Assembly (NCBI GenBank): GCA_910578325.1
Contig: CAJTQT010000002.1
Coordinates: 10,498-74,497 of the forward strand
DNA: 64,000 nt
DNA from: an uncultured Christensenella sp.
Lineage (GTDB): Bacteria > Bacillota > Clostridia > Christensenellales > CAG-917
Reading direction: 5' to 3'
Under the pieces are notes generated by a model that was not told where the DNA came from, did no database searches, and worked only from the letters and a program-made list of their open reading frames with translations. Each line of letters starts with the position of its first letter. The stretch's first letter is position 1. This document shows, piece by piece, positions 3,374 to 60,535 of the stretch. The translations under genes were made by a program, and so were the position numbers.

Positions 3374-3453
3374 CACGATACGTGTATTTAAAGTATTTTT
3401 CAAAATTACCCATTTAAAACACGTATCGTGTAAAAAATTGGACACGTATCGTG
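3374..3453. promoter_or_regulatory. Three copies of an 11-nt CACG-N3-CGTG inverted-repeat site upstream of the ABC operon
   Basis: CACGATACGTG at 3374-3384; CACGTATCGTG at 3420-3430 and 3443-3453 (the latter two are 23 nt apart). The sites lie 80-160 bp upstream of a TGcTATAAT extended -10 (minus strand, plus coordinates 3289-3297). Confidence 0.5.
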
Positions 3454-41259: not shown

Positions 41260-41931
41260 ATGAGATTGCTTGTAGTGGAAGACGACGAAAAGTTGGCTAA
41301 GATTCTTTCCGTTGCGCTGTCGTCGGTAGGCGACGTCGACATCGCTTATACGGGTGAGAAGGCGTTGCAGTACGTTGAAAAGACGTATTACGATTTGGTT
41401 TTGCTGGACCTTATGCTCGGAAAACTCTCGGGAATGGAGGTTTTGCGCGAGATACGCAGAATGCATATTATGCCTGTAATTATACTTTCCGCGCTCAGCG
41501 ACGTGGATAAGAAGATTGAATGCTTTAAACTGGGCGCCGACGATTATATGACGAAGCCGTTTTCGCGGGAAGAGTTGATAGTCAGAATAGAGGCGGCGCT
41601 GAGAAGAGCGGGAGGTTCTTACAGCAGTACCGATTATAAGTTTGAAAATCTTGAAGTCAACTACGTAAACAAAATGCTGAAAATAGACGGAAACTACGTG
41701 GAAATGAACAGAAAGACGTACGAAATTCTGGAATTGCTTGTCCGTAACAAAGATATTATTATGACAAAGCAGCAAATTTTCGACAGAATCTGGGGATACT
41801 ATTCTACGACGGGCACGCAGGTTATTGAGATAAATATATTCAGATTGCGCAAGATATTGCAGCCGTACGGATTCGATAAAAATCTCAAAACCGTAAAAGC
41901 CACGGGATATATGTGGACGGAGAAAGTATGA
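41260..41931 (+). CDS. OmpR-family response regulator
   Basis: Receiver domain MRLLVVEDDEKL...DLVLLDLML (phospho-acceptor Asp) and a C-terminal winged-helix domain. Confidence 0.9.
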   Translation: MRLLVVEDDEKLAKILSVALSSVGDVDIAYTGEKALQYVEKTYYDLVLLDLMLGKLSGMEVLREIRRMHIMPVIILSALSDVDKKIECFKLGADDYMTKPFSREELIVRIEAALRRAGGSYSSTDYKFENLEVNYVNKMLKIDGNYVEMNRKTYEILELLVRNKDIIMTKQQIFDRIWGYYSTTGTQVIEINIFRLRKILQPYGFDKNLKTVKATGYMWTEKV

Positions 41932-43175: not shown

Positions 43176-43177
43176 TT

Positions 43178-46165: not shown

Positions 46166-46186
46166 TTTAGTTTTAGTCGGTGTTTT

Positions 46187-46220
46187 GAGCGCAACGCGAT
46201 ATAAGCGTTGCGCTCTTTTT
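46187..46220 (+). terminator. Terminator of the RR-HK-lipoprotein operon
   Basis: 11-bp stem GAGCGCAACGC / GCGTTGCGCTC followed by TTTTT. Confidence 0.85.
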
Positions 46221-46434
46221 GTTATATTATCATTAAATAAATTTTAAACATTTAAAGCCGAATTTATCTTAATAATAAGAATTGTCAGAAAAAAGAGGTA
46301 AAATTTTCGATATTTTTATACAAAAACCCGAAATTTAATTTTAATTTAATTTGTTTGATATGTTTTTGCAATACTATGATATTGTCAGAATAGGAGAACT
46401 ATATTCTGCACATAAAAATTATGGGGGCATATTT

Positions 46435-49400
46435 ATGAAAAAACATTCTTTTAAACTTATGCTGATTGCGCTTATCGTAGTCATCTGTTTGGGAACTGTT
46501 GTTTTGGCGGCGTGCAATCCGGATACTCCTTCGGGCTCAACCGATTACAGCAAACCCACTGGCACTATGTTAAACGAAATAGTCGGCAAAATCACATCGA
46601 GTATGAGTTTCGGAGAGAGTTTCGGCGTCGATGTCAGCGCGGCTTTTGCTATCGATGACAAAACGGCGGCAAACAAAGACGTCACTTACAGACTCACGGT
46701 CAAAGGAAATGCGGACGGCAGGGCGGACGCAGCCGAAGACGCGACGAATTTCGTTATCGATTTGGTTGAACAGAAAGGCGAAACAAAAAACAGCCTGCTC
46801 AGCATTGCTTACGAGGCTATCGAGGACGAACCGTTTTTCTTTGTCAGCATACTCGGAAGCGATTATAAGAAAATCAACGGATATTCTCTTGCGTCTCTTT
46901 ATAAGATGACTCAAAAGGGCAACGCAACTTCCGCAGCGGAAGACGATCTGGACATCGGTCTTGTAATCGATGCCATTATTCCTATTCTCTTTGGCGAAGA
47001 CGGCACTGTTAAAGATAACGTTTACACCTTGGATTTCGATTTCGGAAAGACGGTTGCGGGCATTGTTGAAAACAAGAACGCAATTCTAACTGTCCTCGGA
47101 ATGACGAGCGAGCAACTCGACGCGCTTGTCGCACAGTATCTCGGAAACCTCAGTTATGAGCAGAACGGAGAAACTATAAACGTAAGCGACGTAGATACTC
47201 TCAAAGCGTTTTTGCAGAGAACTTACGGCATCAAGGGCAAGATAGAATTTAAATTTGACGCAAACGATAAATTCGTAAGCGCGAACGCAAGTTTCGATTA
47301 TAAGAATAAAGGCGAAGACAAAGCAAATTATACGCTTTCTATTGAAAAAGCGGAAATCGGCACAGTTACGACTCCCGTTGACGCCTTCAAAGATTTCGCA
47401 ATGTCATCGTCCGAGCGTAAGAATGCTCAGGCGGTTAATGCACTCAATTTCTCACTCAAAGGCAATGCTACGGGTTATAATGCAGACGGAGAGCCTATTC
47501 ACAATTATACTATCGAAGTTCAATCCGATATCGACGCATTCGAACTGATAGGACTGCTTAACGGTACGAATAAAGAAAATATTGTAGCGACGCTTAAAAA
47601 ACTCGGATATTTTCATCTTGAAATAAACGAGGTGTTTGAAGATAAAGAACCACTCAACATCATTATGCTTCACAGCAAGTTCGAAGAGGGTTTTGCAGTC
47701 GTCAATTTGAATGCATATAAAGCAATTTTATACAATGTAGGACTCGGCGGAGTGTATGATTTCGATACTCTAATCGACGTTATCGGAATGATCGGCGAGG
47801 GCGGAGAGGACGAGAATCCCGAAGAATCCGCAAGCATAATCGACACTCTTAAAAATGTCATAACAAGCGTAAAGGATGTGCTGGGATACTTCACGTTTGA
47901 AAATATGAAGGAAGACGGCGTAACCGTTGCGCTCAACGACCTTGTGTATAAGATTTGCGATATGGCAGGACTTGACACAAGCGGTCTTGTCGGCTCCGCG
48001 ATAGGTGCTATTGTCGGTTGCGACAAAATGAATATAAAACTTCAAACTCCGACCTTCGGCACTTGCGAGACAGTTGAAACGTCCACAATAAAGGGCGGAA
48101 TCAGAGAAACGTCTAATCTTAATAACAATAAAGTCGGCGAATACGACTTATCGGCGTCACGTTACAGCCTCATCAAATCAATCAAATCCATTGACGGACT
48201 GAGTGTAAAATTATTGCAGGGCGAAAGCAATCTGGCAAGATTCTTCAAGGGCTATGTTGCTTATGACAAGGTTATTCTTATGACAGGCGTCGACCTTGCA
48301 GACAACGAAATTCAAACAAGCGGCTTTATTATGGCAGTGAAAGGACTTGACGTCACTAAACCCGGAAAGCAAAAAGTTACTTTCTATATCGCAATAGCGA
48401 ACGACCTGCTTTCTCTCAATTCGTTCTTTACACTTGACGACCTGCTTCCGCTTTCGGGTACTATTAAGTTTGAAACCGAAATAGAAGTTGTTCCATTTGA
48501 TAAGACTGCAGAAGTCACTGTTTCTAATCTCAAGGCAGAAGAACAAACTGTTCTTGCAGGAGGGAAGAAAGCCTTCGACGTCATCAGAGAGAAGACTTAC
48601 GGCGCGGATACGATTATGACAATCGCGGGCATCGGCGAATTCAAGATGACCGATAGCGACGTCAGAGTGATTGACGAGGACGGCAAAGACGTTACAGCAG
48701 ATGTTGTAAACGAAAGCGGTTATATAACAGTTGCAGGTACCTACAGCACTAAACTTTTGTTTGCCGGTTATGAAACGAACTGCTGCACGATTAAAGTAGA
48801 AGACGCTATTGCCGAACGTGTTGACGGCAAGACCGAACAGGAGAGCATATCGCTCGGAGGCACGTGGAACTTCGGCGAGTACAAAGCATACGCTGTGGCA
48901 GCCGACGGCACTAAGACGGAATCTTCCGTTGCCGCGCAATACAGAATGGGCGGTACGACTCTTAAATCGCTCGATGAGGTATTCGATATCGAAAACGGCG
49001 TCTACACACTCAAAAAGGATTTGAGTTTTGTCGGCAAGAACTTTACCGTCAGATTCAATAACGTCGTGACCGAAAGCGGATTAAAAAAGACCGTAGACGT
49101 AAATATTCCTGTCGTATCCGATTATTCGGTGAGTACGCTCGGCAGTATGTATTTCGGTATGTCTATAAGCAACAAACTTGTTTTGACGGTTGGTGAGACA
49201 GAGTTCAATATCGTGCTTAAAGACGGTAACTGGGTTGCCGTTGACAAAGACGGAACGACTAAAAATGTTGAACTTACTTTCGAATGGGATAAGAGTAAGA
49301 CTGCGGTAGAATTTTCGGCAGACGGATTTATCAATAACTATCCCAACGAAAACAAATCCGGATACCGCAGCAATAAAATCAATTACAGTCTCAAGGTTGA

Positions 49401-49755
49401 CGGATACTATCTTAACGCATCCTTTACCGCTTATGAAATGTACGCGATAAACAAGTCCTCGGCAAAAGTCGGTAATAAACTTGACGGATATATTGAAAAA
49501 GTCGACGTTATGGAGTATGCCGTGGACGGCGAGTCCCGAGTTCTTGAATTCAAATACGGCCCCGAAGGTTATGCAATTTATGTAAAAGGCACCGATACCA
49601 AAGTGTATGACGTTACTGTCACGGTGGAGTTGGGCGGCGCCGAAGTCGAACTTGTAGACGGCGCATTTACAGAGACAGGTAAGTACAAAGTGACTTACAG
49701 TGCGACAATAAACGGTGTCGAACAGACGTTCTTCCACGACGTAACCGTTAAATAA
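46435..49755 (+). CDS. Large hypothetical lipoprotein (1106 aa)
   Basis: ORF track 46351..49755. Start moved to MKKHSFKLMLIALIVVICLGTVVLAAC (ATG 46435), giving a signal peptide plus lipobox LAAC. The C-terminal half is beta-rich. No domain recognised. Confidence 0.8.
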   Translation: MKKHSFKLMLIALIVVICLGTVVLAACNPDTPSGSTDYSKPTGTMLNEIVGKITSSMSFGESFGVDVSAAFAIDDKTAANKDVTYRLTVKGNADGRADAAEDATNFVIDLVEQKGETKNSLLSIAYEAIEDEPFFFVSILGSDYKKINGYSLASLYKMTQKGNATSAAEDDLDIGLVIDAIIPILFGEDGTVKDNVYTLDFDFGKTVAGIVENKNAILTVLGMTSEQLDALVAQYLGNLSYEQNGETINVSDVDTLKAFLQRTYGIKGKIEFKFDANDKFVSANASFDYKNKGEDKANYTLSIEKAEIGTVTTPVDAFKDFAMSSSERKNAQAVNALNFSLKGNATGYNADGEPIHNYTIEVQSDIDAFELIGLLNGTNKENIVATLKKLGYFHLEINEVFEDKEPLNIIMLHSKFEEGFAVVNLNAYKAILYNVGLGGVYDFDTLIDVIGMIGEGGEDENPEESASIIDTLKNVITSVKDVLGYFTFENMKEDGVTVALNDLVYKICDMAGLDTSGLVGSAIGAIVGCDKMNIKLQTPTFGTCETVETSTIKGGIRETSNLNNNKVGEYDLSASRYSLIKSIKSIDGLSVKLLQGESNLARFFKGYVAYDKVILMTGVDLADNEIQTSGFIMAVKGLDVTKPGKQKVTFYIAIANDLLSLNSFFTLDDLLPLSGTIKFETEIEVVPFDKTAEVTVSNLKAEEQTVLAGGKKAFDVIREKTYGADTIMTIAGIGEFKMTDSDVRVIDEDGKDVTADVVNESGYITVAGTYSTKLLFAGYETNCCTIKVEDAIAERVDGKTEQESISLGGTWNFGEYKAYAVAADGTKTESSVAAQYRMGGTTLKSLDEVFDIENGVYTLKKDLSFVGKNFTVRFNNVVTESGLKKTVDVNIPVVSDYSVSTLGSMYFGMSISNKLVLTVGETEFNIVLKDGNWVAVDKDGTTKNVELTFEWDKSKTAVEFSADGFINNYPNENKSGYRSNKINYSLKVDGYYLNASFTAYEMYAINKSSAKVGNKLDGYIEKVDVMEYAVDGESRVLEFKYGPEGYAIYVKGTDTKVYDVTVTVELGGAEVELVDGAFTETGKYKVTYSATINGVEQTFFHDVTVK

Positions 49756-49871
49756 GTATAAATTTTGGAGGGATAATGCGCTTGCAATACCGGTCTCTTG
49801 CCCGAATTGCTTTGATATGCAGGCGATTATTCCTCCGAAAAGTTAATCTATACGAATTATAGGGGTATAAA

Positions 49872-51104
49872 ATGAATAAAGCGATTTTATATAAAGCGCT
49901 GAAAAGTATCTTCTTCCTCGCGGGCTTCCCGCTTCTGATAATACTTATGATTATCACGATGGCGCCGATGTTCGGCACCGAGGTTTTAGGAAATCACGCG
50001 CAAAATTGGATTATCGCATTTACGGTAATCTGGGTAGTATTGCTCATAATCCACTTCCTCCTTGAAAAATTCATAGGAGAAAAGAGTGAGGCTCACCACA
50101 AGGTGGTCCTTGTGGTGATGTCCGCACTCTCCATTCTGTGCATACTGCTTCCGTCCGCTATCTTCGACGCGGTGACGCGTCCCAAATACGAAGCGGCTCA
50201 AAAGCAGTTGGTGGGAGAGGTTGACATTAAGAACTACGACGCCGTCGCAGGGTGGCACAGAGATTTCACCAAACGCTATGACAGCGACGTTTACGTTCTT
50301 ATAAACGAAAATTACGATTTTATCAAACAGTACGGAATGGAACACACCTATTCCGAATGGTACGACAACGCCGATAAAGAGCATAATCTCGGATATAAGT
50401 ACGGCTCTTTCGAAAAAGCGAAAGTGCTGACCGAGCAGAAACTCGAAGCGTTGAGAAACCTTGAAGCGGCGAAAGCGGAACTTGCAGAAATCGAAGCCGA
50501 AATCGACGTCAAACTTCAATCGAGCAAAGCGGCTGACGAAGCCCTTGCTCAAAACCCGAACGACGAGGCTCTCGTAAAAGCGGCGGAAGAAGCCCGCAAG
50601 GCATACGACGATATTCTCGCAGAAAAGGAAGAGGACCTTGTCAGACTTAAAGGTTCACGCGTAGACATAACCGAATATAAGGGCGAAATCGTCGATATTC
50701 TGCTTGCTGCGATAAAGGACAAAGACCTTCTTCCCGACGGATTGACGCTCAATCTTTTGGGTATAGACATTCCCGTTGGCGACCTTCTCGACCTCGTGAT
50801 GCAATATGCTGGCGGATTCCTCAATGCTGAAACCATCAACGGACTTATTCCCGACGTGATTTACACGGGTATGGGCCCCCAGACCGTGTCGACTTATCAG
50901 AAAGCGGTTGACGGTTCGGACAGCGATTTGTCGCTTGCGGACGCTCAGAAACTCAATTTCAAGTACACATACTATCCTTCGGTACTTGCCGGCGGCGCAA
51001 TGAAATACGTCTGCTACGTATGCGTGGGTATAGTGGTTCTGAGCCTGTTCCTCACAGATTACTTTGCTAAGAAACAGAAAGAGGAGGAAAAGAAAAATGA
51101 CTGA
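49872..51104 (+). CDS. Hypothetical membrane protein with central coiled coil (410 aa)
   Basis: 3-4 N-terminal TM segments, an A/E/K-rich coiled coil (LEALRNLEAAKAELAEIEAEID...), and a C-terminal TM anchor followed by KKQKEEEKK. Confidence 0.75.
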   Translation: MNKAILYKALKSIFFLAGFPLLIILMIITMAPMFGTEVLGNHAQNWIIAFTVIWVVLLIIHFLLEKFIGEKSEAHHKVVLVVMSALSILCILLPSAIFDAVTRPKYEAAQKQLVGEVDIKNYDAVAGWHRDFTKRYDSDVYVLINENYDFIKQYGMEHTYSEWYDNADKEHNLGYKYGSFEKAKVLTEQKLEALRNLEAAKAELAEIEAEIDVKLQSSKAADEALAQNPNDEALVKAAEEARKAYDDILAEKEEDLVRLKGSRVDITEYKGEIVDILLAAIKDKDLLPDGLTLNLLGIDIPVGDLLDLVMQYAGGFLNAETINGLIPDVIYTGMGPQTVSTYQKAVDGSDSDLSLADAQKLNFKYTYYPSVLAGGAMKYVCYVCVGIVVLSLFLTDYFAKKQKEEEKKND

Positions 51105-52218
51105 GAAAAAATGGCTTTATCCTTTGATCAACATCCTTCTCTATGCGGTTGGCTTCCCGATTATGTTCATCGTGGCTCTTGTCGAGTCTCTGAAATGGAA
51201 CAGTTACGGGATGTACGGAGCGTCCTCATTCGCGCCTTTGATTGCGGTTATCATAATCGCGGTTATCGTGCTCGGCGTACAGGCTCTTGTGTACAATCTT
51301 TGCAAGAAGAAATGCAAAACAGGCAAATCGCTTATGCTCAAAATGGCGTGCATTCCTCTTGCGGTCATCGTAGGTCTGTTCGGAATACTTGATATAGCAA
51401 TGCCTCCGCTTCTCAAATCCGCAACGTCGAATACCATACTTTACGAAGACGTGGTGTACGATTATCAGGGTATGCACGAGCAGATTTACGCCAGAGTAGA
51501 GGCGTTTAAAGCGAAGAACGGTCTGGATGAATCCGTCAAATATACCGACGAAGAATTCCAGAGAATTTTCAAGCCCATTTACAAGAGTATGAACGACGCA
51601 TACAAGTCTTTCGATCCTCTTGCCATTGAAATCGCGCTTGACAAACCCGATATGTTGCAGGCTATTTCCAACGGCGATTTCCCGATTGAACTTGCCGCGA
51701 CTCTGTTGCTTAAAACGTCCGGAAAGCCCAACGAGAGCGATCACAATCTGACTGTAAATCAAATTCTTTCTATGAACCTGCTTAAAATAGTCAACGTTGT
51801 GCTCGACGCAGTAAACAACGGCCTCGATTTCAGCGATACCGCAAAACTCAACGAAATAGTAAACTCAATTCTTGTTTACAAAGAGTTTGACGGCATCAGA
51901 TGGAACATATTCAATATTCTCGGAAACAATATGCTTTTCCCCGACGTTGACCCCAACGCGGAAATAGTGCAGTACGTTTACAACGAATGGGGCGATATCG
52001 AGAGCGAAGAAGTCATCGGCGCGGCTCTGGGCTATCAGGATATGGCGTGGCTTGACGGCATTCCGATGATGTTCTTTATCCCGCTTATGTCGATGAGAGT
52101 AGTATTCTACGTGTTCGCAGCATTGCTTACGCTGTTCGCGGTTGCGCAATACTTCGTATCGGAAGCATACGCAAACAAATTCTCCAAGACTTTCTCTTAT
52201 ATAATGCTTAAACACTGA
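51097..52218 (+). CDS. Hypothetical membrane protein (373 aa), paralog-like of the preceding gene
   Basis: ORF track 51064..52218. Start moved to ATG 51097 (8-nt overlap with the upstream stop). Same topology as the upstream gene. Shares an N-terminal L-x-[AV]-GFP-[LI] motif (LLYAVGFPIMF vs FFLAGFPLLI). Confidence 0.75.
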   Translation: MTEKKWLYPLINILLYAVGFPIMFIVALVESLKWNSYGMYGASSFAPLIAVIIIAVIVLGVQALVYNLCKKKCKTGKSLMLKMACIPLAVIVGLFGILDIAMPPLLKSATSNTILYEDVVYDYQGMHEQIYARVEAFKAKNGLDESVKYTDEEFQRIFKPIYKSMNDAYKSFDPLAIEIALDKPDMLQAISNGDFPIELAATLLLKTSGKPNESDHNLTVNQILSMNLLKIVNVVLDAVNNGLDFSDTAKLNEIVNSILVYKEFDGIRWNIFNILGNNMLFPDVDPNAEIVQYVYNEWGDIESEEVIGAALGYQDMAWLDGIPMMFFIPLMSMRVVFYVFAALLTLFAVAQYFVSEAYANKFSKTFSYIMLKH

Positions 52219-52242
52219 CGTGTTTGAGAATCTCCCGAGAAG

Positions 52243-52268
52243 AGCGCTTACTATATAAGCGCTTTTTT
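52243..52268 (+). terminator. Terminator of the lipoprotein-membrane protein operon
   Basis: AGCGCTTA-CTATA-TAAGCGCT followed by TTTTT. Confidence 0.75.
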
Positions 52269-52319
52269 CGTATAAAAATGTGTGTATCAAAACCGTGAAT
52301 TTAACAAAAATTTGTTCAT

Positions 52320-52490
52320 CTATTAAACATTTAGATGTATTTTCCACGCATAAAATCCGTGAAATCTTACGCGCAATCACCTTTATGCATTATTTTGATA
52401 TGTATTTACGAATGGATTAGTCTGTGACGGTTGATTTTTTTTAATAAAGAAACTATAATTTATATTAAAATACATCTAAATGTTTAATAG
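52320..52490. promoter_or_regulatory. Candidate invertible promoter segment (perfect 24-bp inverted repeats flanking 123 bp)
   Basis: CTATTAAACATTTAGATGTATTTT at 52320-52343 and its exact reverse complement at 52467-52490. An internal promoter faces the LRR gene. Confidence 0.5.
52431..52459 (+). promoter_or_regulatory. Promoter inside the IR-flanked segment, oriented toward the LRR gene
   Basis: TTGATT (52431-52436) - 17 nt - TATAAT (52454-52459). Confidence 0.55.
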
Positions 52491-52526
52491 GTGTATTTTC
52501 GCGTTTAATATCAGAGGTGGGTTATA

Positions 52527-55500
52527 ATGAAGAGAAAATCATTTGCAATTTTGATTTCGGTTATTTTGTGCATAAGTCTTTGCCTGTTTGTGCTTGTTGC
52601 CTGCGACGAGCAGAACGGCACCGAGGCTCACGAGCACAGTTTTGCAAAGTGGTCTTATGACGATTACGAGCACTGGCGCGAGTGCAATGCGGCAAACTGT
52701 CCGTCGCCCGAGAATGACAGAGGCGCGCACGAGTTTGACGCAAACGGCAAATGCTTCTGCGGTTTTGTACGGGCAGGACAGGAAGAAGAGCATATCCACG
52801 AGTTGAACCATTTTGATGCCGTGGAAGTAAACTGTGAGCGCGACGGCAATATCGAATACTGGCTTTGCAAAAAATGCGGGCTGTATTTTTCGGACGCCGA
52901 AGCGAAAATAACTGTGAATGCCTCCGACGTATTTACTTATTCTGAAGGACACGATATGAACTACCGCGGTAGGAAAGACGCGACCTGTACGGAAGTCGGT
53001 TGGAATGATTACGAATTCTGCACCCGCTGCGACTATTCCACGTATAAAGAAATTCCTGCTCTCGACCACGATATAATACATTTTGACACCAAAAAGCCGA
53101 CTTGTACCGAAGACGGTTGGGATGCGTATGAAATGTGCACGAGATGCGACTATAACACGCTTACAAACTATTATCCGTCAGACGGGCACGCTTTGATTCC
53201 GCACGACGGCAAAGACGCTACGTGCACCGAGTCGGGATGGCTATATTACGAGACTTGTGAGAAGTGCGATTATAATACTTATCAGGAACTGTATCCTCTT
53301 CAACACGATTTGAGTTTTTATTCGAGAAAGGACCCAACCTGTACGGAAGACGGTTGGTTTGATTATGAAATTTGCACCCGTCCCGATTGCGGATATAGCA
53401 CTTATGCCGTGTTGGAAAAGTTGGGACATATTCTGTATCAACATGGTGGACGTCCTGTATCCTGTGAGTTGGACGGTTGGGAGCCGTATGAGGAATGCAT
53501 TCGCGAAGAATGCGGGTATTCTACTTTTGAAAATATACCCGCGATAGGACATAACGTTGTTACGGATTTTGCCGTAGAGCCTACCTGTGCGGCGGAGGGC
53601 AAGACGGAGGGTTCACATTGCGAAAATTGCGGTCTTGTTTATACGCCGCAGTACAGCATTCCAAAACTTCCGCACGTAAGCGGAAACTGGACTATGACGG
53701 GAACAACGCACTCGGGCGAGTGCACCGTCTGTCATATGGAAGTCAAAGGACCGCACGACTGGAGTTATAATATCTGTACCGAGTGCGAGTATACGGGATA
53801 TGAAGAGGGCGATACCCGCGGACTTAATATGTCCGTACACTCTGAAAACGGAGTGCAGGTAGGATACGCAGTGTACGGTTTGGGTACTGCTACGGACACC
53901 GATATCAGAATTCCGTCAACGTACAACGGATTGCCGGTAAGTTATATTTACATACTGAGTCAAAGTCTCAATACGAGTATAACAAGCGTGTATGTTCCCG
54001 ACAGTGTTGTGGGTATGGAAGACGGTGCGTTTTCAAGATGCAGGTCGCTCAAAGAAGTTCGGTTGTCGGAAAATATAACCGAAATTTCCGATCGGGCTTT
54101 TAACTTGTGTGGGAATCTCGAAAGTATAAATATTCCGTTCGGAGTGAAAAGCATAGGGGAGCGCGCCTTCTTTGAGTGTCGCGCTTTGAAGAATATCGTA
54201 ATACCCGACGGTGTGAAGAGTATAGGGGAGCGCGCATTCTATCTGTGCAGTTCGTTGACGGAAATCATTTTACCCGAAAGCGTAACGCAGGTCGGACAAG
54301 GGGCGTTTGCAAGTTGTACAAACGTCACCGATGTTTCTATACCGAGCACTTTGTACGATATCGGAGCGGAGGTTTTCAAAGATTGCAGTAAAATAAACTA
54401 TAACACAGACGAATACGGCTTATTGAATTATCTTGGAAATGAAGATAATCCCTATCATCTGCTTATAGGTGCGAAAAAAGATATAAACGCAACTTCTCTT
54501 GCGGTGAATAATCTGACAAAAGTTATTTCCGATTACCCGTTTATATCGTGTACTGAAACGCTGACGTCGTTAACGCTCGGAAACGTGTGCAGAATAAACG
54601 AAGGTCTGATTGCAGATTGTACCAAAATTACGAGCATAACTATTCCGGATACTGTGGAAAAAATCGGTCATTCCGCTTTCAAGGGATGCAGTTCGCTGAC
54701 TGAAATCAATCTTCCCGACAGTATTACGGAAATTTCGCATTCGATGTTTATGGGATGCAGTTCGCTGACGGAAATAATTATTCCCGACAGCATTTCGGAC
54801 ATTCCGTATTTGATGCTTATGGGATGCAGTTCGCTCGCTTCCGTCACGTTGCCGAGTATGTGTACAACCATTTCATATTCAGCATTCGAAGAATGCGTTT
54901 CGTTAAACTCGGTTTATATTCCCGATACGGTCGAATTTATAGATTACAGAGCGTTTTACGGCTGTACCGCGCTGACAAGTATAACAATAAATTCAAGAGT
55001 GACGAAAATTTCGCATTCCACTTTTTCAAATTGTGCCGAACTTTCGGAAGTTACGATTCTGGGCAGTATAACGGAAATCGGAGCAAGTGCATTCGTAGGC
55101 TGTTTAAAACTTGAAAATTTTGAGTTCCCCGAAAGCGTTTCAAAGATCGGGGATTCCGCATTTTACGGTTGTTCTGCATTGAACAGTATAAGACTGCCTG
55201 AAAACTTAACGAATATAGGCAGTGCTGCTTTTAGAAATTGCGCTGCCTTGACAAGCATCAGATTGCCTGATAGCGTAATCAGTGTAGGCGATCAAGCCTT
55301 TGAGAATTGTAAATCCATTGAAGAAATGATTCTTTCAAGCAATTTGGAAGGCATACCTTCGAATTTTATGTACAACTGTACTGCACTCAAAAGCATTGTT
55401 ATTCCTGATTCTGTAACGTACATCGGTTCCGGTGCTTTTGTAAACTGTTCGCTGATTACGGAAGTTATAATCCCCGACAACGTCGTGAGTATAGCGTCCG

Positions 55501-57185
55501 GTAGAGGCAGCGGCACATTCGAAAACTGCACGGGAATAGTGAATCTTGTAATAGGCAATAACGTAGAACATATAGGTGATAATAGTTTTTACAATTGTAC
55601 GGGGCTCACATCTGTAACGTTGCCGAATACGCTGATAACTCTCGGCGGAAGTGTATTTAGAGGATGTGCAAACATATCTGAAATAACTTTCGGCGACCGC
55701 TTGCAGGAAATCGGCGCTCAAGCGTTTGACGGTTGTTCGTCTTTGACTTCCTTATACATTCCGGACGGTGTAAGCAATATCGGCTGGGGCGCATTCCGTA
55801 ACTGCGAAAATGTAACGGAAATGCATTTCCCTGCCAACTTGCAACAGGTCAGCGCTTATATGTGTTACAATATGAAAAAGTTGACCGATGTCGAAATACA
55901 TTACGGCGCAACGTCTATAGGCAACAACGCGTTTGACGGTTGCTCTTCGATAAAAACGCTCTCTATACCGGAAACTGTTACGTCAGTGGGAGACGAAGCA
56001 TTTAGATACTGTATGTATGTCGAGATTGCGACGATTCCCGCAGCCGCGTTTTATGAATTATTTAGGGGGTGGAGGATTAGTCCGTCCTCTGTGCCTATCA
56101 ATTCTTGCAATACCGTAACCGATTTAACTATTGCGGGCGGGGGAGATATTCCCGACAGTTCAAGCGGTGGGTTTGATGTATTGAAAAACCTTGTTATAAG
56201 AAACGTCGATAGGATCGGAAACCGCGCGTTTTCTAACTCCAAAGCGATTGAAAACGTCACGTTTGAAAACATAAAAGAAATCGGAGAGAGCACCTTCGAG
56301 GGATGCGGCTCTATGCTTAGTGCGGTGCTTCCGCAGGGATTGCAGAAAATAGGCGACTTTGCGTTTAAGGGATGCGGATTTATCACCGAATTTTACATCC
56401 CCGGAAGCGTAGAGGAAATAGGAAAGGGCGTGCTTACGGAATATTCCGGTTATTATATAGAAGGAGACGGAGGGGAAATTCTTCCGGTAATTAAACCGTT
56501 AAATCTGACGGTCGACAGCGAAAATCCGAGATACTACGGCAATAACTTTATAGTAGACAGTTATACTAAAACCTTGATATTCAGTTATCAGGGAAATTGG
56601 GAAGGAGATATCGAAACTATCGGAGAGTATGCTTGCGTGAAAGGATTTAATAATATTCCGGAAACTGTAAAGTATATAGAAAATTATGCGTTTTACGGCT
56701 GTCGCATAAAAGATTTGATAATACCCGATAACGTAGTCAGCATAGGCGATTACGCATTTAGTGCTGACCTTGATGACTTTGGCAAAGGTATAGGTAGCAT
56801 CAAATATATATCTAAAAATTTAACTCATTTAGGAATGGGAGCGTTTGTGGGCTGTAATGCAGGGGAATTTGAAATCTGGGACGATAATATCGTGTTGCCT
56901 GAGGGCATTACGGAAATTAGTATGATGGCGTTTGCGCGTAGCGGTTTGAAATCTATAACGCTACATTCCGGTTTGCAAAGTATAAAAATGGAAGCATTTT
57001 TCCATTGTCAGGATCTGGAAGATATTTATTATGAAGGAACCAAAGAGCAATGGAATCTTATTCCGAAAGACGCTGGATGGAATGGACATATTCCCCATAT
57101 AATAAATGGCGACGATACACGAGTTCTTCATTTTACCGTGCATTGTACCGACGGGGATTTGGATAAGGACGGCAACGAAATTTAA
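52527..57185 (+). CDS. Giant surface lipoprotein: Cys/His-rich tandem repeats plus BspA-type leucine-rich repeats (1552 aa)
   Basis: Lipobox LVAC. Aa ~88-383 hold ~7 Cys/His repeats. From aa ~440 onward there are dozens of ~23-aa units matching I-IP-SVT-IG--AF--C--L--I (BspA/LRR_5 type). Confidence 0.9.
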   Translation: MKRKSFAILISVILCISLCLFVLVACDEQNGTEAHEHSFAKWSYDDYEHWRECNAANCPSPENDRGAHEFDANGKCFCGFVRAGQEEEHIHELNHFDAVEVNCERDGNIEYWLCKKCGLYFSDAEAKITVNASDVFTYSEGHDMNYRGRKDATCTEVGWNDYEFCTRCDYSTYKEIPALDHDIIHFDTKKPTCTEDGWDAYEMCTRCDYNTLTNYYPSDGHALIPHDGKDATCTESGWLYYETCEKCDYNTYQELYPLQHDLSFYSRKDPTCTEDGWFDYEICTRPDCGYSTYAVLEKLGHILYQHGGRPVSCELDGWEPYEECIREECGYSTFENIPAIGHNVVTDFAVEPTCAAEGKTEGSHCENCGLVYTPQYSIPKLPHVSGNWTMTGTTHSGECTVCHMEVKGPHDWSYNICTECEYTGYEEGDTRGLNMSVHSENGVQVGYAVYGLGTATDTDIRIPSTYNGLPVSYIYILSQSLNTSITSVYVPDSVVGMEDGAFSRCRSLKEVRLSENITEISDRAFNLCGNLESINIPFGVKSIGERAFFECRALKNIVIPDGVKSIGERAFYLCSSLTEIILPESVTQVGQGAFASCTNVTDVSIPSTLYDIGAEVFKDCSKINYNTDEYGLLNYLGNEDNPYHLLIGAKKDINATSLAVNNLTKVISDYPFISCTETLTSLTLGNVCRINEGLIADCTKITSITIPDTVEKIGHSAFKGCSSLTEINLPDSITEISHSMFMGCSSLTEIIIPDSISDIPYLMLMGCSSLASVTLPSMCTTISYSAFEECVSLNSVYIPDTVEFIDYRAFYGCTALTSITINSRVTKISHSTFSNCAELSEVTILGSITEIGASAFVGCLKLENFEFPESVSKIGDSAFYGCSALNSIRLPENLTNIGSAAFRNCAALTSIRLPDSVISVGDQAFENCKSIEEMILSSNLEGIPSNFMYNCTALKSIVIPDSVTYIGSGAFVNCSLITEVIIPDNVVSIASGRGSGTFENCTGIVNLVIGNNVEHIGDNSFYNCTGLTSVTLPNTLITLGGSVFRGCANISEITFGDRLQEIGAQAFDGCSSLTSLYIPDGVSNIGWGAFRNCENVTEMHFPANLQQVSAYMCYNMKKLTDVEIHYGATSIGNNAFDGCSSIKTLSIPETVTSVGDEAFRYCMYVEIATIPAAAFYELFRGWRISPSSVPINSCNTVTDLTIAGGGDIPDSSSGGFDVLKNLVIRNVDRIGNRAFSNSKAIENVTFENIKEIGESTFEGCGSMLSAVLPQGLQKIGDFAFKGCGFITEFYIPGSVEEIGKGVLTEYSGYYIEGDGGEILPVIKPLNLTVDSENPRYYGNNFIVDSYTKTLIFSYQGNWEGDIETIGEYACVKGFNNIPETVKYIENYAFYGCRIKDLIIPDNVVSIGDYAFSADLDDFGKGIGSIKYISKNLTHLGMGAFVGCNAGEFEIWDDNIVLPEGITEISMMAFARSGLKSITLHSGLQSIKMEAFFHCQDLEDIYYEGTKEQWNLIPKDAGWNGHIPHIINGDDTRVLHFTVHCTDGDLDKDGNEI
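52788..53675 (+). repeat. About seven tandem ~40-aa Cys/His repeats (coding)
   Basis: Units such as GHDMNYRGRKDATCTEVGWNDYEFCTRCDYSTYKEIPAL, DHDIIHFDTKKPTCTEDGWDAYEMCTRCDYNTLTNYYPSD, and GHALIPHDGKDATCTESGWLYYETCEKCDYNTYQELYPL. Pattern: H-x(8-10)-C-x(4)-W-x(2)-Y-E-x-C-x(2)-C-x-Y. Confidence 0.85.
54660..54870 (+). repeat. Near-identical 69-bp tandem DNA repeats within the LRR region
   Basis: GGGATGCAGTTCGCT starts at 54683, 54752 and 54821, an exact 69-nt period equal to one 23-aa LRR unit. Confidence 0.8.
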
Positions 57186-57328: not shown

Positions 57329-58003
57329 ATGGAAAATATTAAAGTTGTTGAAATCAAAGAGGATATCGCATCCCGAAATAACGAACAGGCTCAGTCTATA
57401 AAGGACGAACTTAAAAGAAAGAAAGTGTTTTTCCTCAACGTTATGTCCTCGCCGGGGAGCGGCAAGACGACGCTTATAGTAAATCTTGTCAACCGACTGA
57501 AAAACGATTATAGAATAGGCGTAATAGAGGCTGATATAGATTCTGACGTCGACGCGCATACCGTTGCGGAAAAAACAGGCGTGAAAACCGTGCAGATACA
57601 CACTGCGGGAGCGTGTCATCTTACCTGTCAGATGGCAAACGAATCGCTTTCGGCTCTCGGAATAGACGGACTCGATTTCGTCATACTCGAAAATATCGGC
57701 AACCTTGTCTGTCCTGCGGAGTTCGATACGGGAGCAAGCGCGAATCTGGTCATACTGTCTGTGCCCGAAGGCGATGACAAACCGCTCAAATATCCGTTGA
57801 TGTTTGAGGTTGCGACGGCTGTCGCGATTACGAAGACCGACGTTTTGCCTATATTCGATTTTTCGTTTGAGAATATTGAAAATAACTTGCGCATACGCAA
57901 TCCGCACGCGCCGATATTCTATACTTCGGCATTGAAAGACGATGGTATTGACGCGCTCGAAACGTATTTGCGAGGCGAAATCGCAAAAGCGATAAAAGAC
58001 TGA
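57329..58003 (+). CDS. hypB: Hydrogenase/nickel-enzyme maturation GTPase HypB (copy 1)
   Basis: P-loop SSPGSGKTTL, metal-site GACHL, ENIGNLVCPAEFD, and the TKTD (NKxD-like) motif. No N-terminal His-rich tract. Confidence 0.85.
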   Translation: MENIKVVEIKEDIASRNNEQAQSIKDELKRKKVFFLNVMSSPGSGKTTLIVNLVNRLKNDYRIGVIEADIDSDVDAHTVAEKTGVKTVQIHTAGACHLTCQMANESLSALGIDGLDFVILENIGNLVCPAEFDTGASANLVILSVPEGDDKPLKYPLMFEVATAVAITKTDVLPIFDFSFENIENNLRIRNPHAPIFYTSALKDDGIDALETYLRGEIAKAIKD

Positions 58004-58015
58004 ATCCGCCGTTTT

Positions 58016-58048
58016 GCAAACCGCCGAACCGTCGGTTTGCGCGTTATT
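58016..58048 (+). terminator. Possible terminator after hypB copy 1
   Basis: GCAAACCG / CGGTTTGC stem, followed by a weak T tract. Confidence 0.4.
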
Positions 58049-58201
58049 TGAGGATAATCGCGGAAAATTATTATGAAAAACTGCTATTTTGCAAAAAAAC
58101 AGTCAAAATTCGCGGTCATTTTTGCAATAGGCATTTACATTTAATTAAACGAGTTGTAAAATAAAACCATAAAAATATAATTTTCCAAGAGGAGGAAGAA
58201 T

Positions 58202-59581
58202 ATGAAAGACTTAAATCAAAGGATTTGTATCATCGGTGGCGGTCCCGCCGGTACGAGTGCTGCAATGTACTTGGAAAAGAAGGGATATACCAACTACGTC
58301 ATTTATGAAAAATCCGATCACGTCGGCGGTAAGGCGTTTTCTCCCAAAATGAGAGTGAAAACCGCGGACGGCAAGTGGGAAGAGCGCACCATCGAAATGG
58401 GCGCGGTTATGGGTTGCGATACGTATTTTGCCGTTCAGGAATGCGAAGTGTTCGGCGGTACGACTCACCTTGACGGACCTCCTATGGGACGTAAATTTAT
58501 GATGACAGACGGCACGCCTCAGAAACTGTCTCCCGTTGCGATGCTCAAAAAAGTTATGAAAATGAACAAACTTTCCAGACTTCTCAACAAGAAATACTAC
58601 GGTTACGACGTCAACGGTCACCGCGGCGTTGCGCAGGGTAAGTACGAAGGTATGTGCCCCTCGCCCAAAATGAAACTTAAACGCATCAAGGGCGTAAACC
58701 CCAACCTTAAAGATTTGAGTATGCCTTTTTCCGAGTTCCTCAAACTCAATAAATGCGAGGACGCGGTCACCGTTTGGAAAGGACCTTTTACGTCTTTCGG
58801 TTACGGCTATTTCGATGAAATCCCCGCGGCGTACGTGCTCAAATATCTCGACGCGTTTACCGTAAGACAATTCCTGTCCACCGGTAAACTCTGGACTTGG
58901 AAAAACGGAACGCAGTCCATCTGGGAAGGCGTAAACGCACACCTCAAAAACCCCGCGATTCTCAACTCCGAGGTTACCAACGTCAGAAGAACCGAGGACA
59001 AGGTATACGTGACTGTCAACGGCACGGAGGAAGAGTTTGATAAACTCATCATCTGCACGCCGCTTGAAATGTTCCTCGAATACGGTGATCCGCGCGCGGA
59101 GGAAACCGAACTCTTCAACAAGATTCAAAACAAAAAGTATTTCACGATGGCTGTCAGAACGGCAGAAGGCAACACTCCCGAAATTTCGTATTACTTCTTC
59201 GAGAATATGACAAACGAAACCCGCGGTCACCTTATGGTTTTCTATCACCGTTGGCCGCAGGAAGAAGTCACCGACCAGCCTGTCGTTACGTTTACGTTGC
59301 GTAATCACGAGGGTATGGAAGACGTTCCTTTCGAAGTTGCAAGAGACACCACGCTCGCCGATATGGAGAAGTGCGGAAGAAAGGTTGAGGAAGTTGAGAG
59401 AATCGACGACTGGTATTATTTCCCGCACGTCGGCTCCAAAGACTATGCTGACGGCTGGTATGACAAAGTCGAAGCGATGCAGGGCAAGGATAACACCTTC
59501 TATGCAGGCGAAGTTATGGCGTTCGGCGATATGGAAGAAACCGTCGAATACAGCAGAGACCTCGTACACAGATTCTTTTGA
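58202..59581 (+). CDS. FAD-dependent oxidoreductase-fold enzyme, polyunsaturated fatty acid (linoleate) isomerase PAI-like
   Basis: Rossmann ICIIGGGPAGTSAAMYL...DHVGGK. The C-terminal stretch WYYFPHVGSKDYADGWYDKVEAMQGKDNTFYAGEVMAFGDMEETVEYSRDLVHRFF, together with FGYGYFDEIPAAYVLKYLD and LWTWKNGTQ, matches my recollection of the Cutibacterium acnes PAI sequence. This is unverified. Confidence 0.55.
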   Translation: MKDLNQRICIIGGGPAGTSAAMYLEKKGYTNYVIYEKSDHVGGKAFSPKMRVKTADGKWEERTIEMGAVMGCDTYFAVQECEVFGGTTHLDGPPMGRKFMMTDGTPQKLSPVAMLKKVMKMNKLSRLLNKKYYGYDVNGHRGVAQGKYEGMCPSPKMKLKRIKGVNPNLKDLSMPFSEFLKLNKCEDAVTVWKGPFTSFGYGYFDEIPAAYVLKYLDAFTVRQFLSTGKLWTWKNGTQSIWEGVNAHLKNPAILNSEVTNVRRTEDKVYVTVNGTEEEFDKLIICTPLEMFLEYGDPRAEETELFNKIQNKKYFTMAVRTAEGNTPEISYYFFENMTNETRGHLMVFYHRWPQEEVTDQPVVTFTLRNHEGMEDVPFEVARDTTLADMEKCGRKVEEVERIDDWYYFPHVGSKDYADGWYDKVEAMQGKDNTFYAGEVMAFGDMEETVEYSRDLVHRFF

Positions 59582-59601
59582 TAGAATTAATTCAGACGTA
59601 A

Positions 59602-59632
59602 AGGCAGGCTATCGCAGGATAGCCTGTCTTTT
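59602..59632 (+). terminator. Terminator after the PAI-like gene
   Basis: 12-bp stem AGGCAGGCTATC / GATAGCCTGTCT followed by TTT. Confidence 0.75.
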
Positions 59633-59842
59633 GAAATTCGAAACTTTGAATACGGCGGCTTGAAATCGGGAAACAGTATATGCTCTTTGCGCGCCGTATG
59701 TGACATCAAAGCAAGCAAACGCTCATAATATTATTAACGGAGCGGAAAATACGGCGGTTTTCCGAGTAAAATTATGGATAATGCAAAATATAGCGATAAA
59801 TAGTGAAAATTGCTCTTTATTTATTTATAGTTTTACTGTATA

Positions 59843-60535
59843 ATGTTAAATATGAGTGAAATAAGGACCATAAACCTTTCAAAAAGCGTATTCGAGGACA
59901 ACGATAACGAAGCGGATCTGCTTCGCGCTTATCTGAAATCCAAAAATCTGTTTTTGGTAAACGTAATGTCTTCTCCCGGAGCGGGAAAAACCACTACGTT
60001 GATTTCGCTTATCAACAGACTGTCTGACAGATTCAGAATAGGAGTGATGGAAGCGGATATCGATTCCGACGTTGACGCGGTGAGAGTTGCCGGCAGGACG
60101 CACTGCAAGTCCGTCCAGTTGCACACGGGCGGTATGTGTCATCTTGACGCCGCTATGACGAAGCAGGGGCTGGACGGCATAGGGATAGATGATTTGGATT
60201 TGGTGTTTTTGGAAAACGTCGGCAATCTCGTCTGTCCTGCGGAATTCGATACGGGCGCGCACCTGAATATGACGATTCTGTCGGTTCCGGAAGGCGACGA
60301 TAAACCGTTGAAATATCCTTTGATATATCAAAAGTGCGATTTGGTGCTCATCAATAAAATCGATGCCGCGCCGTATTTCACTTTTGATTTAAAGAAGTGC
60401 GTGGATAATATAAAATTCAGAAACAATAATTCGACCGTAATCCCGATATCCGCCAAAAGCGGCGAGAATCTGGACGTCGTAGTCGATTATTTTATAAAAA
60501 AATTGTCAAGCGGAGGGAAGAGAGACAATGCCTGA
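59843..60535 (+). CDS. hypB: HypB nickel-metallochaperone GTPase (copy 2)
   Basis: SSPGAGKTTT, GMCHL, ENVGNLVCPAEFD, NKID. Roughly half of residues are identical to copy 1 by eye. An alternative start is ATG 59852. Confidence 0.85.
   Translation: MLNMSEIRTINLSKSVFEDNDNEADLLRAYLKSKNLFLVNVMSSPGAGKTTTLISLINRLSDRFRIGVMEADIDSDVDAVRVAGRTHCKSVQLHTGGMCHLDAAMTKQGLDGIGIDDLDLVFLENVGNLVCPAEFDTGAHLNMTILSVPEGDDKPLKYPLIYQKCDLVLINKIDAAPYFTFDLKKCVDNIKFRNNNSTVIPISAKSGENLDVVVDYFIKKLSSGGKRDNA

What the first reader, a model, noticed from the sequence alone, without database searches (positions are those of the whole stretch)
52320..52490. Candidate invertible promoter (phase-variation switch) in front of the 1552-aa LRR surface lipoprotein
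Seen directly:
- A perfect 24-bp inverted repeat (CTATTAAACATTTAGATGTATTTT at 52320-52343, exact reverse complement at 52467-52490) brackets 123 bp.
- That 123 bp contains a good promoter (TTGATT-17-TATAAT, 52431-52459) pointing at the LRR gene, whose ATG is at 52527.
- The upstream operon ends in a terminator at 52243-52268, so the LRR gene appears to depend on this promoter.

Established knowledge: IR-flanked promoter cassettes upstream of surface proteins are the standard architecture of recombinase-driven phase variation, as in E. coli fimS, Bacteroides capsule promoters and the Clostridioides difficile cwpV/flgB switches.

Inference: expression of this giant adhesin-like protein is ON in the assembled orientation and could flip OFF. 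No recombinase gene lies in the window, so it would act in trans.
Basis: partly seen in the sequence, partly recalled or inferred. Interest (0 to 1): 0.7.

Follow-up and report, generated by a model that had tools for sequence, protein, structure and literature searches.

The report
Invertible promoter switch for LRR lipoprotein
The inverted repeat is real and is very probably a flip-flop promoter that turns a giant surface protein on and off, built like dozens of switches in other gut Clostridia; it is a well-supported but ordinary example of a known mechanism.

Summary
A perfect 24-nt inverted repeat (27 nt with one mismatch) brackets 123 bp. That segment holds a TTGATT-17-TATAAT promoter aimed at a 1552-aa BspA-type LRR lipoprotein gene, just after a strong terminator.

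The inverton reading is supported by three new lines of evidence.
- Assemblies of the same strain break at exactly the positions a de Bruijn graph predicts if reads carry the flipped right-hand junction. A second element copy or an empty site predict other positions.
- Each repeat arm contains a 23-nt dyad, TCATCTATTA-AAC-ATTTAGATGT. It matches the core-site consensus of a large family of switches lying just 3' of a ~305-aa tyrosine recombinase gene in gut Clostridia. At least six of those switch lineages occur in both orientations in public assemblies. All 69 scored have the same promoter placement, and their cargo is LRR/Flg_new/Big_2 lipoproteins or DNA methyltransferases and restriction-type enzymes.
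- A 57-60% identical member of that recombinase family lies 12.6 kb downstream, 1.1 kb beyond the window end.

Direct read counts for both orientations at this locus are still missing. This is a new member of a known kind and of moderate interest.

The parts
52243..52268 (+). Intrinsic terminator of the upstream four-gene operon (GAGCGCTTA-CTATA-TAAGCGCTTTTTT)
   Evidence: RNA fold of 52225-52300 gives -21.6 kcal/mol, z = -4.96, and 0 of 200 shuffles fold as well. It isolates the LRR gene from upstream transcription; this isolation is inferred.
52316..52338 (.). Left core recombination site, a dyad: TCATCTATTA-AAC-ATTTAGATGT
   Evidence: This is the top hit in the 64-kb window (16.3 bits) of a weight matrix built only from sites of the recombinase-linked switch family. 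The dyad structure is seen.
52320..52343 (.). Left arm of the perfect 24-nt inverted repeat
52344..52466 (.). Invertible 123-bp segment between the repeat arms
   Evidence: Contigs of the same strain end or start at 52349, 52467 and 52521. These are the positions predicted for a mix of ON molecules and the OFF right junction.
52431..52459 (+). Sigma-70-type promoter TTGATT-17-TATAAT, pointing at the LRR gene (ON orientation)
   Evidence: Its position at one end of the segment, with the -10 ending 25 nt from the reference point, matches the family design, where the values are 17-18 or 26-29 nt with a 17-nt spacer in 69 loci.
52467..52490 (.). Right arm of the perfect 24-nt inverted repeat
   Evidence: Two contigs (L002, L003) begin at exactly 52467.
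52472..52494 (.). Right core recombination site, a dyad: ACATCTAAAT-GTT-TAATAGGTGT. In the mRNA it forms a 5'-terminal hairpin.
   Evidence: Second-best weight-matrix hit in the window, 14.9 bits. The pair statistic was reached in 0 of 300 shuffles. The hairpin folds at -13.2 kcal/mol, z = -2.7.
52515..52523 (+). Ribosome-binding site AGAGGTGGG
   Evidence: Read directly from the sequence.
52527..57185 (+). Controlled gene: 1552-aa lipoprotein with Cys-rich N-terminal repeats and ten BspA-type LRR_5 stretches
   Evidence: The exact protein is found in 5 public contigs.

Best explanation
The 171-bp element (52320-52490) is an invertible promoter cassette. Each repeat arm carries a 23-nt dyad core site: two roughly 10-nt recombinase-binding half-sites around an asymmetric centre. 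The two sites face each other, so a tyrosine recombinase that pairs them flips the 123-133 bp between them.

In the assembled orientation the internal promoter (-10 at 52454-52459) fires rightwards through the right core site. It transcribes a roughly 60-nt leader and the LRR lipoprotein gene, which is otherwise shielded by the upstream terminator (ON). After inversion the promoter points left, towards that terminator and the 3' end of the upstream gene. The LRR gene then has no promoter (OFF).

The most likely invertase is the 305-aa tyrosine recombinase encoded 12.6 kb downstream on the opposite strand, acting in trans.

Shown: the repeat, the promoter match, the terminator, the site match to the family, inversion of family switches in public data, the presence of the recombinase, and graph breaks at the predicted positions.

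Inferred: that this switch actually flips in cells, that this promoter is the only one for the gene, and that this recombinase is the one responsible.
For: (1) Anatomy is confirmed.

(2) Assembly-graph signature.
- Logan contig L006 ends at 52349 and L003 starts at 52467. SPAdes contig L002 (coverage 6.2) starts at 52467, and scaffold L005 ends at 52521, which is 52467 plus 54.
- All four are 100% identical to the window.
- A de Bruijn simulation gives no break for ON alone. ON plus the OFF right junction gives exactly these positions for k = 31 and k = 55.
- A second copy elsewhere predicts 52461 or 52437, and an empty site predicts 52491. Neither is seen.

(3) Family evidence.
- Relatives of the recombinase (52-59% identical, 84 loci) have a pair of dyad sites of the form WCATCnATTA-NNN-TAATnGATGW directly after their stop codon, 103-178 nt apart.
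- Six or more lineages have collinear flanks (88-100% identical) around an interior that is 96-100% identical only as its reverse complement.
- A strong TTGACx-17-TATAAT promoter sits at a fixed distance from one site in all 69 scored loci.
- Cargo is LRR_5, Flg_new, Big_2 or collagen-repeat lipoproteins, or DNA methyltransferases and restriction-type helicases.

(4) A weight matrix made from those sites ranks the two window arms first and second in 64 kb. No pair that good appeared in 300 shuffles, and no pair at all in about 165 kb from related species.

(5) The recombinase (P0159; P0279 in the window strain, 304/305 identical) keeps the invariant family positions that fit the catalytic set: R149, K172, H250, R253, H276, Y286. 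It is far below the XerC/XerD cut-offs (65 and 43 bits against 335 and 330). It is present in the very sample whose contigs break at the switch.
Against: - No contig or read with the flipped orientation at this locus was seen directly. All continuous assemblies (the window and GCA_949746805.1) are ON.
- The broken assemblies are 100% identical to the window and may all derive from one sample, so they are not clearly independent.
- Only the right-hand OFF junction is implied by the Logan contigs. The left contig runs 6 nt past the arm, which means the left OFF junction was absent or pruned.
- Fold-back chimeras formed at inverted repeats during library preparation would give the same junction sequences.
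- Unlike 69 of 69 family loci, the recombinase is not adjacent to the switch. No core-like site lies next to the recombinase gene.
- The single-site matrix score (16.3 bits) is reached by some shuffled windows (maximum 18.8); only the pair is exceptional.
Confidence: 0.85

Rival explanations
1. A fossil or locked switch. The element descends from the inverton family, but it no longer flips because the recombinase is no longer adjacent. It now acts as a fixed promoter.
For: The recombinase is 12.6 kb away on the other strand, with no site beside it. All continuous assemblies show the ON orientation.
Against: The arms are still 24 of 24 identical and the inner half-sites are intact. The recombinase keeps the invariant family positions that fit the catalytic set. 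Contig breaks at 52349, 52467 and 52521 need a second junction in the reads.
Confidence: 0.08
2. The contig breaks are technical. Fold-back or template-switch chimeras at the inverted repeat during library preparation created the apparent OFF junction. The repeat has another role, such as a protein operator or a leader hairpin.
For: Such chimeras have exactly the sequence of an inversion junction (my reasoning). The broken assemblies may share one read set. Only one of the two OFF junctions is implied. The right dyad does form a stable 5' hairpin in the predicted leader.
Against: Artefact chimeras are rare, yet here they would have to survive the assemblers' coverage filters in a contig of only about 6x coverage. 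An artefact also does not explain why the arms match the core sites of a proven inverton family, with the same spacing and promoter layout.
Confidence: 0.05
3. A miniature transposable element (MITE-like) with terminal inverted repeats that happened to land upstream of the gene.
For: It is a small element of 171-177 bp with terminal inverted repeats.
Against: There is no target-site duplication: the flanks are ...TTGTT(CAT) and (GTG)TATTTT. There is no other copy in the window or in the 10 kb beyond it, even with 6 mismatches. There are no exact copies in 185,579 species genomes or in the metagenome contig collection. A multi-copy element predicts contig starts at 52461 or 52437, not 52467.
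Confidence: 0.01
4. An RNA-level element: a long-range stem, attenuator or riboswitch in a read-through transcript.
For: The arms could pair in an RNA that spans both.
Against: A strong terminator lies upstream, and the promoter sits inside the loop, so the main transcript contains only one arm. There is no Rfam match; the only hit is a chance one at E = 0.2. Family members keep DNA dyads and invert.
Confidence: 0.01

Closest known systems
Clostridial invertons linked to an adjacent tyrosine-type recombinase/integrase ('inverton group 139 / invertase group 35' of the PhaseFinderDC catalogue, PMC11892184)
   Same: These are short invertons flanked by inverted repeats in class Clostridia. Nearly all have a nearby tyrosine recombinase, and they flip in culture and in mice. 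The family I assembled (L022-L105) has the same taxonomic range and the same recombinase-next-to-switch layout.
   Different: Identity with group 139 could not be tested because no sequences are held. The two examples quoted there have 205-227 nt between the arms, against 103-178 nt here. In the window genome the recombinase is 12.6 kb from the switch, not within 5 kb.
Clostridioides difficile cwpV (Cdi1) and flgB (Cdi4) switches inverted by RecV
   Same: Both are in a Clostridia-class organism. A tyrosine recombinase encoded elsewhere acts in trans on short switches flanked by inverted repeats upstream of a cell-surface protein gene (PMC5903667).
   Different: From my own knowledge, the cwpV switch works through a terminator formed in the leader, with the promoter outside the switch. 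Here the promoter is inside the switch. Homology of P0159 to RecV and similarity of the repeats were not tested.
E. coli fimS with FimB/FimE
   Same: Both have a promoter inside a short invertible segment, tyrosine recombinases, and ON/OFF control of a surface adhesin.
   Different: From my own knowledge, fimS is 314 bp with 9-bp repeats, adjacent recombinase genes, and a need for IHF and Lrp. P0159 scores only 23-25 bits on the FimB/FimE-type invertase models, against cut-offs of about 221.
Bacteroides capsule and surface-protein promoter invertons (Mpi serine invertase; Tsr tyrosine recombinases)
   Same: Both are gut-commensal invertible promoters for surface structures, with shared repeat motifs across many loci and a conserved promoter inside (PMC11892184).
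   Different: The phylum, promoter type (a sigma-70 -35/-10 promoter here) and repeat motif all differ. No serine invertase is found in or next to the window.
Simple tyrosine-recombinase sites such as loxP/Cre, FRT/Flp and dif/XerCD
   Same: Each has two inverted recombinase-binding half-sites around a short asymmetric centre, and the relative orientation of the two sites decides inversion versus excision (established knowledge).
   Different: The half-sites here are about 10 nt, and the apparent centre is 3-7 nt. The recombinase is not a XerC/XerD equivalog. The best match among solved structures is the catalytic domain of the Tn1549 integrase, E = 1.6e-15.

Membership tests
Recombinase-driven invertible promoter (inverton) | Short DNA segment bounded by inverted repeats of 10-40 nt | tested here: met
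   The arms are 24 nt perfect (27 nt at 96%) around 123 nt. The size range is as given in PMC11892184 and PMC11602134.
Recombinase-driven invertible promoter (inverton) | Promoter inside the segment that reads out into a neighbouring gene in one orientation only | tested here: met
   TTGATT-17-TATAAT at 52431-52459 points at the LRR gene, and a terminator lies upstream. This is a consensus match only; no transcript data are available.
Recombinase-driven invertible promoter (inverton) | Both orientations present in a population | tested here: inconclusive
   The evidence is indirect. Contig ends at 52349, 52467 and 52521 equal the positions simulated for ON plus the OFF right junction. No flipped contig or read was seen, and the independence of the samples is uncertain.
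Recombinase-driven invertible promoter (inverton) | A site-specific recombinase in the genome that can act on the repeats | tested here: met
   A 305-aa tyrosine recombinase lies 12.6 kb downstream, with the invariant positions that fit the catalytic set conserved. Its action on this site was not tested.
Clostridial 305-aa tyrosine recombinase switch family (defined here from L022-L105) | Each arm is a 23-nt dyad WCATCnATTA-NNN-TAATnGATGW | tested here: met
   The window arms are TCATCTATTAAACATTTAGATGT and ACATCTAAATGTTTAATAGGTGT. They rank first and second of all positions in the 64 kb, and the pair was matched in 0 of 300 shuffles.
Clostridial 305-aa tyrosine recombinase switch family (defined here from L022-L105) | The two core sites are about 103-178 nt apart, with a -35/17/-10 promoter at a fixed distance from one site | tested here: met
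   The window has 133 nt between its core sites. The promoter spacer is 17 nt and the -10 ends 25 nt from the reference point, against 17-18 or 26-29 nt in the family.
Clostridial 305-aa tyrosine recombinase switch family (defined here from L022-L105) | The switch lies directly 3' of the recombinase gene, on the same strand as the cargo | tested here: not met
   The recombinase is 12.6 kb downstream on the opposite strand. It is followed by a terminator and an amidase gene, with no core-like site beside it.
Clostridial 305-aa tyrosine recombinase switch family (defined here from L022-L105) | Cargo is a surface lipoprotein or a DNA-modification/restriction gene | tested here: met
   The cargo here is an LRR_5 lipoprotein. 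Family cargo includes LRR_5 proteins in L022-25, L099, L053, L055, L059 and L074.
FimB/FimE-type invertase system (fimS) | The recombinase belongs to the FimB/FimE tyrosine invertase family | tested here: not met
   NF007371 and NF007370 score 24.7 and 23.4 bits, against cut-offs of 222 and 221.
XerC/XerD housekeeping recombinase | Passes the equivalog model | tested here: not met
   TIGR02224 scores 65 bits against 335, and TIGR02225 scores 43 against 330.
Hin/Gin/Mpi serine invertase system | A serine recombinase (Resolvase domain) near the switch | tested here: not met
   No Resolvase-domain protein is found in the window or in the 10 kb to its right.
C. difficile RecV regulon | The recombinase is an orthologue of RecV and the repeats resemble Cdi sites | not tested
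   No RecV or Cdi sequences were at hand. Only the design in which the recombinase acts in trans is shared.
MITE / small IS | Target-site duplication and multiple copies | tested here: not met
Known structured RNA (Rfam) | Match above the gathering score | tested here: not met
   The only hit is a chance one: 20.4 bits against a gathering score of 44, E = 0.2.

The most novel reading that the evidence does not exclude
This locus is one instance of a portable, pan-Clostridia phase-variation cassette whose anatomy has not yet been worked out. The cassette is a ~305-aa tyrosine recombinase, two 23-nt dyad core sites and a fixed-position promoter. It is plugged in front of surface lipoproteins or DNA methyltransferase/restriction genes, and is sometimes carried on conjugative elements.

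In the usual layout the OFF-state promoter reads antisense into the recombinase gene, which could bias switching. In this genome the recombinase has become detached and serves its switch from 12.6 kb away.
Probability: 0.35. Interest if true: 0.55.

Novelty: new member of a known kind. Interest (0 to 1): 0.4.

Why it matters
If the switch flips, this uncultured relative of Christensenellales varies the display of its largest predicted adhesin-like surface protein from cell to cell. That bears on host or partner attachment, immune or phage evasion, and the reading of metagenomic strain variation.

On the practical side, the site consensus and the recombinase profile derived here give a read-free way to find such switches in Clostridia genomes. 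Contig ends at these sites can be read as a sign of orientation heterogeneity. Conceptually it adds no new mechanism.

Tried and rejected
- Exact scans for the 24-mer in 185,579 species genomes and in the metagenome contig collection found nothing. The species is rare, and no extra copies or flipped copies could be collected that way.
- The look-up with the TTG-start version of the upstream gene failed. The 373-aa version worked.
- Orthologous loci in related species lack the LRR gene and the repeat. Comparative covariation or conservation of the arms could therefore not be tested.
- The N-terminal part of the LRR protein has thousands of repeat-domain hits but no close orthologue, at most 47% identity. 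That gave no route to sister switches.
- No paper mentions the sample or assembly accessions.
- The supplement of PMC11892184 holds no repeat sequences, so equivalence with its group 139 remains open.
- No source gives the recombinase clusters a name.
- I looked for a relic core site next to the recombinase, which would support an ancestral 12.8-kb inversion that separated it from the switch. None was found.
- The MITE, RNA-element and XerC/D readings were considered and rejected. The reasons are given under rival explanations and the membership tests.

Full report
**Observation.**
The window contains CTATTAAACATTTAGATGTATTTT at 52320-52343 and its exact reverse complement at 52467-52490. The repeat extends to 27 nt with one mismatch, and 123 nt lie between the arms. 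The 24-mer has no other copy in the window, even with 3 mismatches, and none appeared in 100 shuffles. It is the only long near-perfect inverted repeat with a spacing up to 1.5 kb in 64 kb, apart from a 21-nt, 86% one at 3371-3433.

Inside the segment, TTGATT-17-TATAAT (52431-52459) points right. A ribosome-binding site (AGAGGTGGG) and the ATG at 52527 follow. The ORF encodes 1552 aa with ten BspA-type LRR_5 stretches and a signal peptide ending in the lipobox LVAC. About 50 nt to the left, a hairpin plus U-run closes the upstream operon (-21.6 kcal/mol, z = -4.96).

The surroundings are ordinary chromosome: ileS, pta-ackA, plsX, rnc, smc, ftsY, ffh, trmD, lepA and rho. No recombinase is encoded in the window.

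**Evidence at the locus itself.**
The exact LRR protein and the exact upstream 373-aa protein each occur on five public contigs. One MAG contig (GCA_949746805.1) crosses the element in the same orientation as the window and differs from it by 2 SNPs in 16.7 kb. The other contigs are 100% identical to the window but stop at the element:
- Logan contig ERR3357636_177224 ends at 52349.
- Logan contig ERR3357636_8884 starts at 52467.
- SPAdes contig NODE_255 of ERZ13404912 (coverage 6.2) starts at 52467.
- Scaffold_21 of ERZ28595601 (287,846 bp) ends at 52521.

I simulated de Bruijn graphs. The ON sequence alone gives no branch at k = 31 or k = 55, because the repeat is shorter than k. ON plus the right-hand junction of the flipped state gives unitig ends at exactly 52349 and a restart at 52467 for k = 31. 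For k = 55 it gives a shared vertex at 52467-52521. A second copy of the element elsewhere would give restarts at 52461 or 52437. An empty site would give 52491. So the reads behind these assemblies contain a sequence in which the right flank and right arm are joined to the left end of the interior. That is what an inversion produces.

There are caveats. The assemblies may share a sample. The left OFF junction is not implied by the Logan contigs. Fold-back chimeras at inverted repeats would have the same sequence, although they are unlikely to survive assembly at about 6x coverage.

**The recombinase.**
I extended the sequence to the right through the HypA gene. This showed a 305-aa protein with Phage_int_SAM_3 and Phage_integrase domains, 12.6 kb downstream of the switch on the opposite strand and 1.1 kb beyond the window end. 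It is not XerC or XerD (65 and 43 bits against cut-offs of 335 and 330) and not a FimB/E-type invertase. Its best match among solved structures is the catalytic domain of the Tn1549 integrase.

It is flanked by an amidase gene, a DUF1508 gene, pcrA and ligA, so it is not part of a prophage. The window strain's version differs by one residue and lies in the same context in sample ERR3357636.

**A family of switches.**
This recombinase has thousands of relatives of 304-305 aa at 52-60% identity. One of them (P0244) lies directly upstream of a 1375-aa Big_2 plus LRR_5 lipoprotein gene. In four public contigs the flanks are identical, but the 126 nt between two short repeats is present in one orientation in two contigs and as the exact reverse complement in the other two.

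I fetched 80 more loci from metagenomes. The 150-190 nt right after the recombinase stop codon often match between loci only on the opposite strand, and nothing similar is seen upstream of the gene. For at least six lineages the flanks are 88-100% identical. The interior is 58-64% identical on the same strand but 96-100% identical as its reverse complement. These pairs are L026/L033, L061/L064, L022/L023, L087/L088, L056/L060 and L048/L075.

Each repeat arm in these loci is itself a dyad. Examples are ACATCTATTA-GCG-TAATAGATGA, TCATCGATTA-CTC-TATTCGATGA and TCATCAATTA-CAT-TAATTGATGA. Two inverted half-sites around a short asymmetric centre is the usual layout of a simple tyrosine-recombinase site (established knowledge).

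In all 69 loci with enough sequence, a TTGACx-17-TATAAT promoter, often with an extended -10, sits at a fixed distance from one site. It faces the cargo in 18 loci and the recombinase gene in 51.

The cargo genes fall into two groups:
- lipoproteins with LRR_5, Flg_new, Big_2 or collagen repeats;
- DNA methyltransferases (C5, N6, EcoRI-type, type III mod), ResIII/SNF2 helicases and a UvrD-PD-(D/E)XK protein.

**The window element belongs to this family.**
Its arms contain TCATCTATTA-AAC-ATTTAGATGT (52316-52338) and ACATCTAAAT-GTT-TAATAGGTGT (52472-52494). A weight matrix built from 42 distinct family sites, none from the window, ranks these two positions first and second in the 64 kb (16.3 and 14.9 bits). 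A pair that good, at 90-230 nt spacing, occurred in 0 of 300 shuffles (maximum 12.0). No pair occurred in about 165 kb from related species. The 133 nt between the core sites, the 17-nt promoter spacer and the position of the -10 all fall within the family's ranges.

One family feature is not met. The recombinase is not adjacent to the switch, and no core-like site lies beside the recombinase gene. So it must act in trans, as RecV does in C. difficile (PMC5903667).

**Mechanism.**
The recombinase pairs the two inverted core sites and flips the promoter segment. As assembled, the promoter reads through the right core site into the LRR gene. The dyad of that site would form a 5' hairpin in the leader (-13.2 kcal/mol). 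Flipped, the promoter faces the upstream terminator and the LRR gene has no promoter. That the promoter is active and is the gene's only promoter is inferred. That this recombinase is the invertase is also inferred, from family membership and proximity; I put that link at about 0.6.

**Rivals.**
- A locked relic of a switch is possible, but it does not explain the graph breaks.
- A purely technical origin of the breaks does not explain the match to a proven inverton family.
- A MITE is excluded by the lack of a target duplication, the lack of other copies, and the break positions.
- An RNA element is unlikely. The promoter lies between the arms, a terminator lies upstream, and Rfam gives nothing.

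**Organism and comparison with what is known.**
The nearest species-level genomes carrying the upstream operon are labelled uncultured Clostridia or Christensenella sp. MAGs, at no more than 64% identity. The species itself is absent from the species-representative collection. Its relatives lack the LRR gene and the repeat at this position.

Invertons are well known, widely catalogued and typically under 300 bp with 10-40-nt repeats (PMC11602134, PMC11892184). A Clostridia-wide group of invertons linked to an adjacent tyrosine recombinase ('group 139 / invertase group 35') has been reported and shown to flip. It may be the same family, but no sequences were available to test this.

**Verdict.**
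The finding is a real and well-supported switch, and a new member of a known kind. The family-level anatomy of sites, spacing, promoter and cargo is a useful by-product.

Noticed in passing
L020:11704-12621 (-), equivalent to window coordinates 65124-66041, just beyond the window end: An orphan 305-aa tyrosine recombinase lies between an amidase gene and a DUF1508 gene, next to pcrA-ligA. It belongs to a very large family of 304-305-aa proteins that no source names.
   Followed up: yes
L022-L025:1-12918: The recombinase-switch-LRR_5/Big_2 lipoprotein module sits inside a mobilisable or conjugative element (TraG/VirD4, relaxase, MobC/NikA-like, IstB, large serine recombinase). The phase-variable adhesin module is therefore likely spread horizontally.
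   Followed up: partly
L026-L105, first ~200 nt after the recombinase stop codon: In public assemblies the family promoter faces the recombinase gene (OFF for the cargo, antisense to the recombinase) in 51 loci and the cargo in 18. This suggests a default OFF state and possible orientation-dependent control of the recombinase.
   Followed up: partly
L020:~12645-12710 (-), upstream of the recombinase start: Two copies of the palindrome CGGCATATTGCC about 50 nt apart lie in the recombinase's promoter region. This is a candidate operator.
   Followed up: no
window 41260-52218: A two-component system (response regulator at 41260-41931, histidine kinase at 41913-43175) is followed by four genes of 995, 1134, 410 and 373 aa with no Pfam match. 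The last two are predicted membrane proteins. The four genes keep the same order in the related loci fetched, and the 373-aa gene recurs in Christensenella-labelled MAGs.
   Followed up: partly
window 52950-53500 (LRR protein residues ~140-330): Tandem Cys-rich repeats of about 39 aa (CTE.GW..YE.C.RC.Y) precede the LRR region. Thousands of proteins share them, including proteins of Faecalibacterium, but my Pfam scan of the protein gave no hit for this part.
   Followed up: partly
L008:7123-7250 and L009:7123-7267: Logan contigs of two related species also stop 128 and 145 nt after the last gene of the same operon. L009 ends in a short palindrome (CATAGAA...TTCTATG). The cause is unknown.
   Followed up: no
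window 3371-3433: A 21-nt inverted repeat (86%) with a 21-nt loop lies upstream of the isoleucyl-tRNA synthetase gene. It is probably part of a leader or terminator.
   Followed up: no
window 57329-63768: A cluster of two CobW/HypB-like GTPase genes, an amine-oxidase-like flavoprotein, a 966-aa Fer4/pyridine-nucleotide oxidoreductase and HypA lies directly downstream of the LRR gene.
   Followed up: no
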